Source of the DNA: a virus
Taxonomy: Duplodnaviria; Heunggongvirae; Uroviricota; Caudoviricetes
DNA: 64,000 nucleotides
Virus record (IMG/VR): IMGVR_UViG_3300008262_000022
Reading direction: 5' to 3' (one strand)
Position numbers and translations under genes: made by a program. A model generated the notes under the pieces. It saw only the letters and a list, made by a program, of their open reading frames with translations. It searched no databases and had not been told where the DNA came from. Below are positions 45,273-45,530 of the stretch, one piece after another. Position 1 is the first letter of the stretch. The number at the start of each line of letters is the position of its first letter.

Positions 45273-45338
45273 AAGAAAAATGCGTTTTCTATTCTTGTTA
45301 TATATTTATATCAAATAATAAACAAACTAATTTCAAAA

Positions 45339-45440
45339 ATGACACTGAGATATATAAATACGATTTCGTTAAGTCCGGTTGCCCAAGAGTGGGGAATGGA
45401 TAAAGGCTTCTATCGTGTTAACTGTCAGGGTCAAATGTAA
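45339..45440 (+). CDS. 33-aa leader peptide MTLRYINTISLSPVAQEWGMDKGFYRVNCQGQM
   Basis: ATG 45339 to TAA 45440 after TATATTTA; 19 of 20 amino acids; 3' end complementary to the downstream terminator. Confidence 0.7.
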   Translation: MTLRYINTISLSPVAQEWGMDKGFYRVNCQGQM

Positions 45441-45498
45441 ACGATATAAAACAAATTGCATATAACAAGAGCCCTGACTTAAAAATCAGGGCTTTTTT
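45424..45498 (+). promoter_or_regulatory. Transcription attenuator (antiterminator/terminator pair)
   Basis: Terminator agccctga(45470-77)/tcagggct(45486-93) plus a U-tract. The alternative pairing is gtcagggt(45424-31) with gccctgac(45471-78). Confidence 0.7.
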
Positions 45499-45530
45499 GT
45501 TGGCTTGGCAAAATAAAAATATTATCTTTA
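45499..45530 (+). promoter_or_regulatory. Promoter directly upstream of the tRNA array
   Basis: GTTG-N20-TATCTTTA. Confidence 0.5.

What the first reader, a model, noticed from the sequence alone, without database searches (positions are those of the whole stretch)
45301..45530. Pan-tRNA-sensing attenuator: a 33-codon leader samples every tRNA species of the downstream array except His
Seen: ATG45339-TAA45440 encodes MTLRYINTISLSPVAQEWGMDKGFYRVNCQGQM, with 19 of 20 amino acids. Repeated residues use different isoacceptor codons: Leu CTG/TTA, Arg AGA/CGT, Ile ATA/ATT, Ser TCG/AGT, Gly GGA/GGC/GGT. These match the array's Leu UAG/UAA, Arg UCU/ACG, Ile2/Ile GAU, Ser UGA/GCU and Gly UCC/GCC, so 25 of 26 tRNA species are covered. 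Many codons are G/C-ending in an AT-rich genome. The last codons (gtcagggt, 45424-31) are complementary to the 5' arm (gccctgac) of the terminator 30 nt downstream. Known: in amino-acid operon attenuators, ribosome position chooses between terminator and antiterminator. Inference: complete translation masks the antiterminator and stops transcription, while stalling on any depleted or cleaved tRNA frees it and allows read-through into the tRNA/Ro60/RNase P island. This would be a general sensor of translational sabotage, for example by host anticodon nucleases, rather than a single-amino-acid sensor. I do not know of a described example. Caveat: a separate promoter at 45499-45530 could drive basal expression, so the attenuator may only boost output.
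Basis: partly seen in the sequence, partly recalled or inferred. Interest (0 to 1): 0.93.

Follow-up and report, generated by a model that had tools for sequence, protein, structure and literature searches.

The report
All-codon leader before phage tRNA genes
A 33-codon reading frame just upstream of this phage's tRNA gene array uses almost every kind of tRNA exactly once and is built like a classical transcription attenuator, so it probably lets the phage make more tRNA whenever translation falters for lack of any tRNA; this is inferred from sequence comparison only, with no expression data.

Summary
ORF 45339-45440 encodes 19 of 20 amino acids and 24 of 25 elongator tRNA classes in 32 codons. 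Null probabilities are 5e-6 (genome codon usage) and 2.6e-4 (own-composition shuffle). It is the extreme outlier among 743 small ORFs in the genome.

I found eight orthologues in uncultured phage contigs, seven with DNA. They sit in three different gene contexts, always with a terminator and a promoter and, wherever the contig reaches far enough, tRNA genes. Peptide sequence and length drift (30-40 aa), but seven of the eight keep 19-20 amino acids, and the seven with DNA keep 23-25 tRNA classes. Diversity is highest in the codons that could signal (22 classes in 23 codons).

The last codons pair with the terminator's 5' arm in all orthologues. A second clade has a different terminator and three different matching sequences. 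The same segment also pairs with the start-codon region in 8 of 8 folds. This gives a trp-like four-segment attenuator.

Not shown: transcription, translation, read-through, or any link to host tRNA nucleases. The array also has its own recurrent promoter. The scan has not noted this element on other DNA. I found no description of it in the literature searched.

The parts
45283..45311 (+). Probable leader promoter (P_L): CGTTTTCT followed by the box TATATATTTATAT (45299-45311)
   Evidence: The box is invariant in W, A and B and present in C, D and E. It recurs at 6 other intergenic sites of the genome, 24-39 nt before ORF starts (one search matches genome 70867-70902). In four orthologues the arrangement is TTTG-N20-TATATTTA, which resembles the Bacteroidota sigma-A consensus as I recall it. 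Promoter function is inferred.
45339..45440 (+). Leader ORF of 33 codons (MTLRYINTISLSPVAQEWGMDKGFYRVNCQGQM): 19 amino acids, 24 of 25 elongator tRNA classes
   Evidence: The start context scores at the median of real genes and in the top 4.4% of all ATGs. Orthologues keep the frame through in-frame indels.
45340..45348 (+). Segment 1: start-codon region that pairs with segment 2 (anti-antiterminator; it also occludes the UG of the AUG)
   Evidence: MFE and consensus folds. The same long-range pairing appears in 8 of 8 orthologues, against 0-6% of shuffles.
45342..45410 (+). Predicted sensing zone, codons 2-24: 23 codons using 22 different tRNA classes (only Thr repeats)
   Evidence: P = 5e-7. 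With the A site on these codons, a ribosome leaves 45424-45431 free (geometry assumed).
45357..45419 (+). Internal hairpin of the ORF body, a possible RNA polymerase pause or synchronising hairpin
   Evidence: the stem AUACGAU/AUCGUNU is kept in W, A and B with only compatible changes. ORF RNAs are more stable than shuffles in all orthologues (z -2.2 to -5.9). The pause role is inferred.
45424..45431 (+). Segment 2: antiterminator strand GTCAGGGT (codons 29-31), a near copy of the terminator's 3' arm
   Evidence: The duplex with 45471-45478 is -15.2 kcal/mol. Dinucleotide-shuffle P is 0.014 anywhere in the ORF and 0.002-0.003 restricted to the last ten codons.
45470..45498 (+). Segments 3 and 4: intrinsic terminator (arms 45470-45477 and 45486-45493, then the T-run)
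   Evidence: -14.8 kcal/mol. The stems are invariant in W, A and B while the loops vary. The C-type clade has a different terminator at the same place.
45505..45534 (+). The array's own promoter (class I motif TTGGCAAAATAAA..TTATCTTTACAAT)
   Evidence: It is the reference copy of a motif that recurs at 14 or more + strand sites, allowing up to 8 mismatches, most just upstream of ORF starts. It is conserved after the terminator in all orthologues and is duplicated in B and D.
45559..53376 (+). Downstream tRNA array with the Ro60 gene and an RNase P-like RNA, the presumed regulated target
   Evidence: Metatranscriptome contigs cover 45566-45800 and beyond.

Best explanation
This is a ribosome-mediated transcription attenuator of the trp/his type, placed in front of a phage tRNA array. 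Its leader frame is selected to contain about one codon for nearly every tRNA class, rather than a run of one amino acid.

Proposed mechanism (inferred):
- Transcription starts at the leader's own promoter, around 45283-45311.
- Segment 2 (45424-31, the last codons) can pair with segment 1 (the start region), with segment 3 (the terminator's 5' arm), or be covered by a ribosome.
- If a ribosome keeps pace and sits on the last codons or the stop when the polymerase makes segments 3 and 4, the terminator forms and the transcript ends at about 45498.
- If no ribosome loads, pairing 1:2 may likewise leave the terminator free. My equilibrium folds do not support this (see the Against line), so the no-ribosome outcome is open.
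- If the leading ribosome is delayed anywhere in codons 2-24, by a shortage of any tRNA class or by globally slow elongation, segment 2 is free and segment 1 is occupied by the stalled or queued ribosomes. Pairing 2:3 then forms and transcription runs on into the tRNA array, adding to the output of the array's own promoter.

Shown: the sequence features, their statistics and their conservation. Inferred: transcription, translation, switching and physiological role.
For: 1. Codon-class coverage is far beyond chance and unique in the genome.

2. There are eight orthologues.
- A is L014 (identical contigs L023, L024, L026); B is L044; C is L041; D is L048; E is L049-51; F is L052; G is L053. P0005 has no DNA available.
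- A-G have 19-20 amino acids and 23-25 tRNA classes in 32-40 codons. Conditional on the shared first 8 codons, P ranges from 3e-6 to 3e-3.
- Sole codons move between positions. For example, AGT/GGC swap between W and B, and Cys sits at codon 29, 22, 11 or 19 in different orthologues.

3. Eight random substitutions would preserve all classes in only 1.7% of trials.

4. Synonymous sites are constrained. Between W and A, 2 of 30 third positions differ, against 60 of 173 in the flanking gene (p = 0.0012). Indels are in frame.

5. The start context is typical of real genes in this genome.

6. The module is conserved as sORF, terminator, class-I promoter and, where the contig is long enough, tRNAs. 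It occurs in three gene contexts: after the 277-aa gene, after Ro60, and after other genes plus a tRNA.

7. The antiterminator complementarity is position-specific. P values are W .002, A .007, B .014, D .0007, E .004, F .0017, G .022 and C .095. The C-type clade has a different terminator (CCUCGGA) and three different matching sequences encoded by different amino acids.

8. Segment 2 pairs with ORF nucleotides 2-16 in the MFE fold of 8 of 8 orthologues, against 0-6% of shuffles.

9. Diversity is concentrated in the codons that can signal: 22 classes in 23 codons in W and A, 23 in 28 in C (P from 5e-7 to 8e-5).

10. The leader promoter box is recurrent in the genome.
Against: - There is no direct evidence that the leader is transcribed or translated.
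- The antiterminator is short (8 bp here, 5-6 bp in C and G) and no more stable than the terminator. At full-length equilibrium the terminator wins in every modelled state.
- In truncated transcripts the antiterminator forms even without a ribosome, so the no-translation outcome is uncertain.
- Each tRNA class has only one to three codons. The published attenuation model predicts low sensitivity when few control codons are cognate (PMC1183508). Only severe depletion of one tRNA, or a global slowdown, would be sensed.
- The only Cys and the only CGN-Arg codons here lie in the blind zone.
- A perfect copy of a recurrent promoter lies between the terminator and the tRNAs, so the array does not depend on read-through.
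- One orthologue (P0005) has only 17 amino-acid types in 30 codons.
- Relatives L001-L008 and the Ro60-bearing phages have tRNA genes without any such leader.
- The orthologues are related, so their P values are not independent.
- The protein-based search can only find intact frames.
Confidence: 0.6

Rival explanations
1. The element is a stand-alone small gene with its own promoter and terminator. Its product, a 30-40 aa peptide or a structured ~180-nt RNA, is the functional entity. The terminator simply ends the unit and insulates the tRNA promoter, and nothing downstream is regulated.
For: The layout is promoter box, ORF, terminator and then a separate strong promoter. Conservation at the nucleotide level includes bases after the stop codon in B (AAATGTAA). 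The RNA fold is stable (z -2.2 to -5.9). Some residues are invariant (M1, L3, R4, I6, T8, S10, P13, W18, Y25).
Against: This does not explain the extreme and maintained tRNA-class coverage. It does not explain why the ORF's 3' end mimics the terminator arm in two clades with different terminators. It does not explain the constant linkage to tRNA arrays in three contexts. Apart from the first 10-11 residues the peptide is poorly conserved and varies in length. The element has no Rfam, Pfam or PHROG family.
Confidence: 0.2
2. The ORF is a translated all-codon sensor, but its output is not the proposed 2:3 antiterminator. Possible outputs are Rho-dependent polarity, transcript cleavage or stability, occlusion or activation of the downstream promoter by read-through, or a nascent-peptide effect.
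For: Codon coverage is the best-supported feature. The antiterminator helix is short and thermodynamically no better than the terminator. In C and G it is only 5-6 bp.
Against: The position-specific complementarity recurs in all orthologues with DNA. Together with the 1:2 pairing it forms the complete classical architecture. No feature specific to the alternative outputs was seen.
Confidence: 0.12
3. The ORF is a chance frame in a GC-richer structured spacer, for example a decayed tRNA or tRNA-like gene, and its diversity is a by-product of balanced base composition.
For: The GC content of the region is above that of the surrounding intergenic DNA. ORFs that overlap tRNA genes are also fairly diverse (second to fourth ranks).
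Against: Own-composition shuffles still give P = 2.6e-4 for W, <3e-5 for A, 4.6e-4 for B and 3e-3 for C. There is no tRNA or other Rfam match. The frame stays open with in-frame indels across diverged orthologues.
Confidence: 0.04

Closest known systems
Leader-peptide transcription attenuators of amino-acid operons (trpL, hisL, leuL, pheL; multivalent thrL and ilvL)
   Same: A short translated leader is followed by an intrinsic terminator. An antiterminator strand lies under the last codons, and a 1:2 pairing involves the leader's 5' part. Ribosome position is expected to choose between the alternative hairpins.
   Different: There is no run of one regulatory codon; instead there is roughly one codon per tRNA class. 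The target is a tRNA gene array in a phage, not biosynthetic genes. A second promoter lies behind the terminator. Segment 1 includes the start codon. The presumed host phylum is Bacteroidota.
T-box riboswitches
   Same: The logic is similar: tRNA status controls read-through of a terminator upstream of translation-related genes.
   Different: A T-box binds one specific uncharged tRNA directly and needs no ribosome. No specifier loop or T-box sequence is present, and there is no Rfam hit.
General ribosome-stalling leaders induced by translation inhibitors (ermCL, cat leaders, bmrB-bmrCD, vmlR, toiL-topAI; from my own knowledge)
   Same: A leader ORF reports impaired elongation in general, rather than a shortage of one amino acid, and it alters a downstream RNA structure.
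   Different: Those leaders respond to drug-bound ribosomes at particular peptide motifs. Here the distinguishing feature is exhaustive codon-class coverage, and the target is tRNA supply.
RtcR-controlled rsr-yrlBA-rtcBA operon of Salmonella (from my own knowledge)
   Same: Ro60, Y-like RNAs and RNA-repair functions are linked to a sensor of tRNA damage.
   Different: That sensor is a protein (RtcR) responding to tRNA fragments. Here the proposed sensor is a cis-acting translated leader.

Membership tests
Ribosome-mediated (leader-peptide) transcription attenuator | Short ORF with a usable start site in the 5' leader of the regulated genes | tested here: met
   ORF 45339-45440. The start context is at the median of real genes. 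The frame is conserved in eight orthologues. Translation itself is not shown.
Ribosome-mediated (leader-peptide) transcription attenuator | Intrinsic terminator between the leader ORF and the regulated genes | tested here: met
   45470-45498, -14.8 kcal/mol plus a T-run. A terminator is present at the same place in all orthologues with DNA.
Ribosome-mediated (leader-peptide) transcription attenuator | Alternative antiterminator pairing that a ribosome at the end of the leader would mask | tested here: met
   45424-31 pairs with 45471-78. Position-restricted P values are 0.0007-0.02 in seven orthologues and 0.095 in one. The pairing is re-created with different sequences in the clade that has a different terminator. 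This is computational evidence only.
Ribosome-mediated (leader-peptide) transcription attenuator | A 1:2 (anti-antiterminator or pause) hairpin | tested here: inconclusive
   Segment 2 pairs with ORF nucleotides 2-16 in the MFE fold of 8 of 8 orthologues, against 0-6% of shuffles. In equilibrium models of truncated transcripts, however, 2:3 outcompetes it. Only one strictly compensatory pair was found.
Ribosome-mediated (leader-peptide) transcription attenuator | Enrichment of regulatory codons for the amino acid made by the operon | tested here: not met
   There are no codon runs. Instead there are 22 different tRNA classes in the 23 control codons. This is the feature that makes it a variant rather than a typical member.
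Ribosome-mediated (leader-peptide) transcription attenuator | Read-through responds to translation of the leader | not testable with these tools
   This needs a reporter, Term-seq or an in vitro coupled system.
T-box riboswitch | Stem I with specifier loop and the conserved T-box antiterminator sequence | tested here: not met
   No T-box match, or any other match at or above a family's gathering score, in a permissive Rfam scan of 45260-45560.
tRNA, tRNA-like or Y RNA gene | Match to the tRNA, YrlA or Y_RNA covariance models | tested here: not met
   No such hit in 45260-45560 at E <= 10, nor in the 18-kb scan.

The most novel reading that the evidence does not exclude
A virus-encoded sensor of whole-cell decoding capacity. 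One short frame polls nearly every tRNA class. Any failure, such as starvation, a codon-usage mismatch with the host, or cleavage of a tRNA by a host anticodon nuclease, opens transcription into a near-complete replacement tRNA set together with the Ro60, RNase P-like RNA and RNase H-like genes. This would be a closed feedback loop between translation status and phage tRNA supply.
Probability: 0.4. Interest if true: 0.95.

Novelty: new variant of a known kind. Interest (0 to 1): 0.87.

Why it matters
Why phages carry large tRNA arrays, and how they control them, are open questions. Current ideas are codon-usage compensation and escape from host tRNA-cleaving defences.

A leader that samples all tRNA classes would be the first cis-acting regulator tied to a phage tRNA array. 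It would also be the first attenuator that reads global decoding capacity rather than one amino acid. In addition it would be a leader-peptide attenuator in a phage of Bacteroidota, a phylum where such control is little studied.

The idea is directly testable with a small reporter or a defined in vitro translation system. The all-codon design could also serve as an engineered sensor of tRNA pools.

Tried and rejected
Searches that found nothing relevant:
- No Rfam family matches the element: neither the 18-kb scan nor the permissive 300-nt scan gave a hit at or above a family's gathering score. The weak sub-threshold hits, including Thr_leader at 20.9 bits, only match the terminator hairpin.
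- No PHROG match. No tblastn hit in GenBank phages. No blastn similarity in phages beyond tRNAs.

Relatives without a leader:
- Eight relatives found through the upstream 277-aa gene (L001-L008) lack the leader; a tRNA or an 84-aa ORF follows the gene directly.
- Phages found through Ro60 (L029-L032, G001) and through tRNA-Asp (G006-G008) have tRNA genes scattered among ORFs, with no leader and no comparable sORF.
- A diverse ORF upstream of tRNA-Ile in G006 and G007 has an out-of-frame indel between the two phages, so I rejected it as an analogue.

- The 18-mer and 23-mer hits L015-L020, L021, L022, L025, L027 and L028 are chance matches or an unrelated protein gene.

Expression:
- Contigs from two metatranscriptomes (X14, X19) start at 45566 and 45658. 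None covers the leader or bridges the terminator. Contigs cannot show absence, so this says nothing about the leader.
- The DNA run X3 holds both the W and A versions and no new variants.

Folding:
- Equilibrium folding with ribosome masks does not discriminate between states.
- The global, non-positional duplex test for C is not significant (P = 0.38-0.41).

Ideas considered and dropped:
- A Y RNA partner for the nearby Ro60: no model hit, and no Ro-binding helix was evident.
- A decayed tRNA.
- A codon preference for Watson-Crick matches to the phage anticodons: by inspection only about half of the codons match.

Full report
**Setting.** The window is bases 427-64426 of a 171.7-kb phage genome with terminal repeats. 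Earlier notes of this scan assign it to a Bacteroidota host. Genes here lack Shine-Dalgarno sites and have A-rich leaders, which I recall as typical of that phylum.

The order of features is as follows:
- a ribonucleotide reductase gene, an 844-aa gene and a 277-aa gene, ending at 45272;
- the element under study;
- about 27 tRNA genes (45559-53376), interspersed with a Ro60 (TROVE) gene, an RNase P-like RNA and tRNA-like RNAs;
- an RNase H-like gene and a QueC-like gene.

**The observation.**
- P(>=19 of 20 amino acids in 33 codons) is 0.006 under the genome's codon usage, 0.02 under shuffles of the ORF's own bases that stay open, and 0.004 for 33-residue windows of the phage's real proteins.
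- I grouped codons into the 25 elongator tRNA classes of a minimal bacterial set. This is also the set carried by the array, except that Ser-GCU is unconfirmed. The ORF covers 24 of 25 classes in 32 codons. P is 5e-6 under codon usage, 2.5e-5 under uniform codons and 2.6e-4 under own-composition shuffles.
- Among all 743 ATG-ORFs of 20-60 codons in six frames of the genome it is the single outlier (p 1.5e-5; the next is 6e-3, as a uniform null would predict).
- Its GC3 is 0.42 against 0.16 for the genome.

**Orthologues.**
- Relatives found through the flanking gene lack the element.
- DNA word searches found version A (L014; identical contigs L023, L024 and L026), version B (L044) and version C (L041).
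- A profile search of 1.84 billion proteins added D, E, F, G and P0005. DNA was obtained for D-G.

| Version | Codons | Amino acids | tRNA classes |
|---|---|---|---|
| W (window) | 33 | 19 | 24 |
| A | 33 | 20 | 25 |
| B | 32 | 19 | 23 |
| D | 33 | 20 | 24 |
| E | 33 | 20 | 23 |
| C | 38 | 20 | 23 |
| F | 39 | 20 | 24 |
| G | 40 | 19 | 24 |
| P0005 | 30 | 17 | no DNA |

- Only the first 10-11 residues are well conserved. The C, F and G peptides are about 33% identical to W.
- Conditional on the shared first eight codons, coverage probabilities run from below 3e-6 (W) and 3e-6 (A) to 3e-3 (C).
- Sole codons change place while coverage is kept. Between W and B, AGT (Ser) and GGC (Gly) exchange positions, and Val and Gly-UCC move. 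Cys sits at codon 29 (W), 22 (E), 11 (C) or 19 and 31 (F).
- Eight random substitutions in W would keep every class in only 1.7% of trials. The eight real differences from A lose none and add His.
- Indels are in frame.
- Between W and A, third positions of identical residues differ at 2 of 30 sites, against 60 of 173 in the neighbouring gene, which is only 66% identical in protein (p = 0.0012).

**Linkage to tRNA genes.**
- The module always has the same order: small ORF, intrinsic terminator, a promoter of the recurrent class I, and, wherever the contig reaches far enough, tRNA genes.
- It occurs in three contexts: after the 277-aa gene (W, A, B, D), directly after the Ro60 gene and before a 17-tRNA array (E), and after unrelated genes plus one tRNA (C, F).
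- So the ORF travels with the array, not with its upstream neighbour.

**Attenuator anatomy.**
- Segment 2 (45424-31, codons 29-31) is a near copy of the terminator's 3' arm. It can pair with the 5' arm at -15.2 kcal/mol, against -14.8 for the terminator.
- I restricted the test to the last ten codons and compared with dinucleotide shuffles. The complementarity has P = 0.0007-0.014 in W, A, B, D and E.
- In A and D, substitutions lengthen this helix.
- The C, F, G clade has a different terminator (arm CCUCGGA). There the ORF's end carries UCCGA, GUCCG-U-AGG or UCGAGG. These are three different matching sequences, encoded by Ser-Glu, Val-Arg-Arg and Asn-Arg-Gly, all about 8-14 nt before the stop. 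P values are 0.095, 0.0017 and 0.022. This is covariation at the level of whole helices.
- In the MFE fold of the ORF alone, segment 2 pairs with ORF nucleotides 2-16, the start codon and first codons, in 8 of 8 orthologues. The base rate in shuffles is 0-6%. This explains why the first codons are conserved at the nucleotide level.
- All ORF RNAs fold better than shuffles (z -2.2 to -5.9).
- A ribosome whose A site is on codon 25 or later covers segment 2; on codons 2-24 it does not (footprint assumed). Within that zone W and A use 22 classes in 23 codons (P = 5e-7), E uses 22 in 24, and C uses 23 in 28. The diversity therefore sits where it could signal.

**Promoters.**
- The site at 45505-34 is the perfect copy of a motif present at 14 or more + strand sites upstream of genes. 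The array therefore has its own promoter, which is duplicated in B and D.
- The box TATATATTTATAT at 45299-311 is invariant among the orthologues. It recurs at six other intergenic sites, 24-39 nt before ORFs. In A, C, D and E it follows TTTG at 20 nt.
- The leader thus appears to be driven by a second promoter class. The attenuator would gate that class's access to the array (inference).

**Weak points.**
- Nothing shows that the leader is transcribed or translated. Metatranscriptome contigs cover only the tRNAs, which proves nothing either way.
- The antiterminator is short and not more stable than the terminator.
- Equilibrium models give the terminator at full length and the antiterminator in truncated RNA, whatever the ribosome state. 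The switch, if real, must be kinetic, and the no-translation outcome is open.
- With one to three codons per class, theory predicts poor sensitivity to mild shortage of one amino acid but high sensitivity when all control codons slow together (PMC1183508). The design suits severe loss of any one tRNA or a global slowdown.
- Cys and CGN-Arg in W lie in the blind zone.
- Codon sets and array tRNA sets do not match one-for-one. For example, C lacks TTR and CGN codons although its array has those tRNAs.
- P0005 is less diverse. The orthologues share ancestry, so their P values are not independent.

**Comparison and novelty.**
- The architecture meets the structural criteria of leader-peptide attenuators but fails the criterion of a run of cognate codons. 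It is not a T-box, tRNA or Y RNA.
- Five full-text literature searches found no leader of this kind and no regulator of phage tRNA arrays.
- I rate it a new variant of a known mechanism, well supported by comparative sequence evidence but untested experimentally.
- My estimates: about 0.85 that the codon coverage is a selected property, and about 0.6 that the output is terminator read-through into the array.

Noticed in passing
window 45505-45534, 47722-47750; genome 32388, 64706, 67872, 84663, 103158, 105127, 108081, 109246, 111088, 116418, 152350, 153276: A roughly 30-nt promoter-like motif (TTGGCAAAATAAAgatatTATaTTTACAAt) recurs at 14 or more + strand sites, most directly upstream of ORFs. 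It is probably a temporal promoter class of this phage.
   Followed up: partly
genome 53812, 65464, 70883, 118686, 125101, 160180 (window = genome - 426): A second recurrent intergenic box, (T/C)ATATATTTATAT, lies 24-39 nt before ORF starts. It is the same box that precedes the leader, which suggests a second promoter class.
   Followed up: partly
window 52935-53022: An 88-nt tRNA-like gene sits where relatives have tRNA-Ser(GCU). It has no GCU anticodon loop, and ARAGORN calls it Gly-UCC with a long extra arm. It may belong to the tRNA-like family with swapped cores noted elsewhere in this genome.
   Followed up: no
window 47393-47472: An initiator-like tRNA (CAU anticodon, three G-C pairs in the anticodon stem, ...CGCAACA 3' end) has its D-arm region replaced by an insert. 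Only a weak Rfam tRNA-Sec hit (27.7 bits) was found.
   Followed up: no
window 47027-47086: A 60-nt non-tRNA block is identical between this phage and the L014-type phage (L023:3510-3569). Flanking spacers differ, so this is probably a conserved small RNA module.
   Followed up: no
window 52370-52552: A short RNase P-like RNA lies within the array (Rfam archaeal RNase P model, 35.6 bits, below the gathering score).
   Followed up: no
L045 and L046 (reverse complement 2226-2345 and 3122-3202): A GC-richer, apparently structured ~300-nt region lies upstream of tRNA-Ile in two ~170-200-kb phages. It carries an 11-nt indel between the two, so it is non-coding. Its nature is unknown.
   Followed up: no
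L049:2315-2434 (also L050, L051): In the E lineage a 39-aa ORF (starting MEKIEVTIQDIW...) lies between the post-terminator promoter and the first tRNA of the array.
   Followed up: no
window 45100-45800, run X3: One metagenome contains both the W and A versions of the leader, so the two phage lineages co-occur in one sample. Metatranscriptome contigs (X14, X19) begin at 45566 and 45658, within the first tRNAs.
   Followed up: partly
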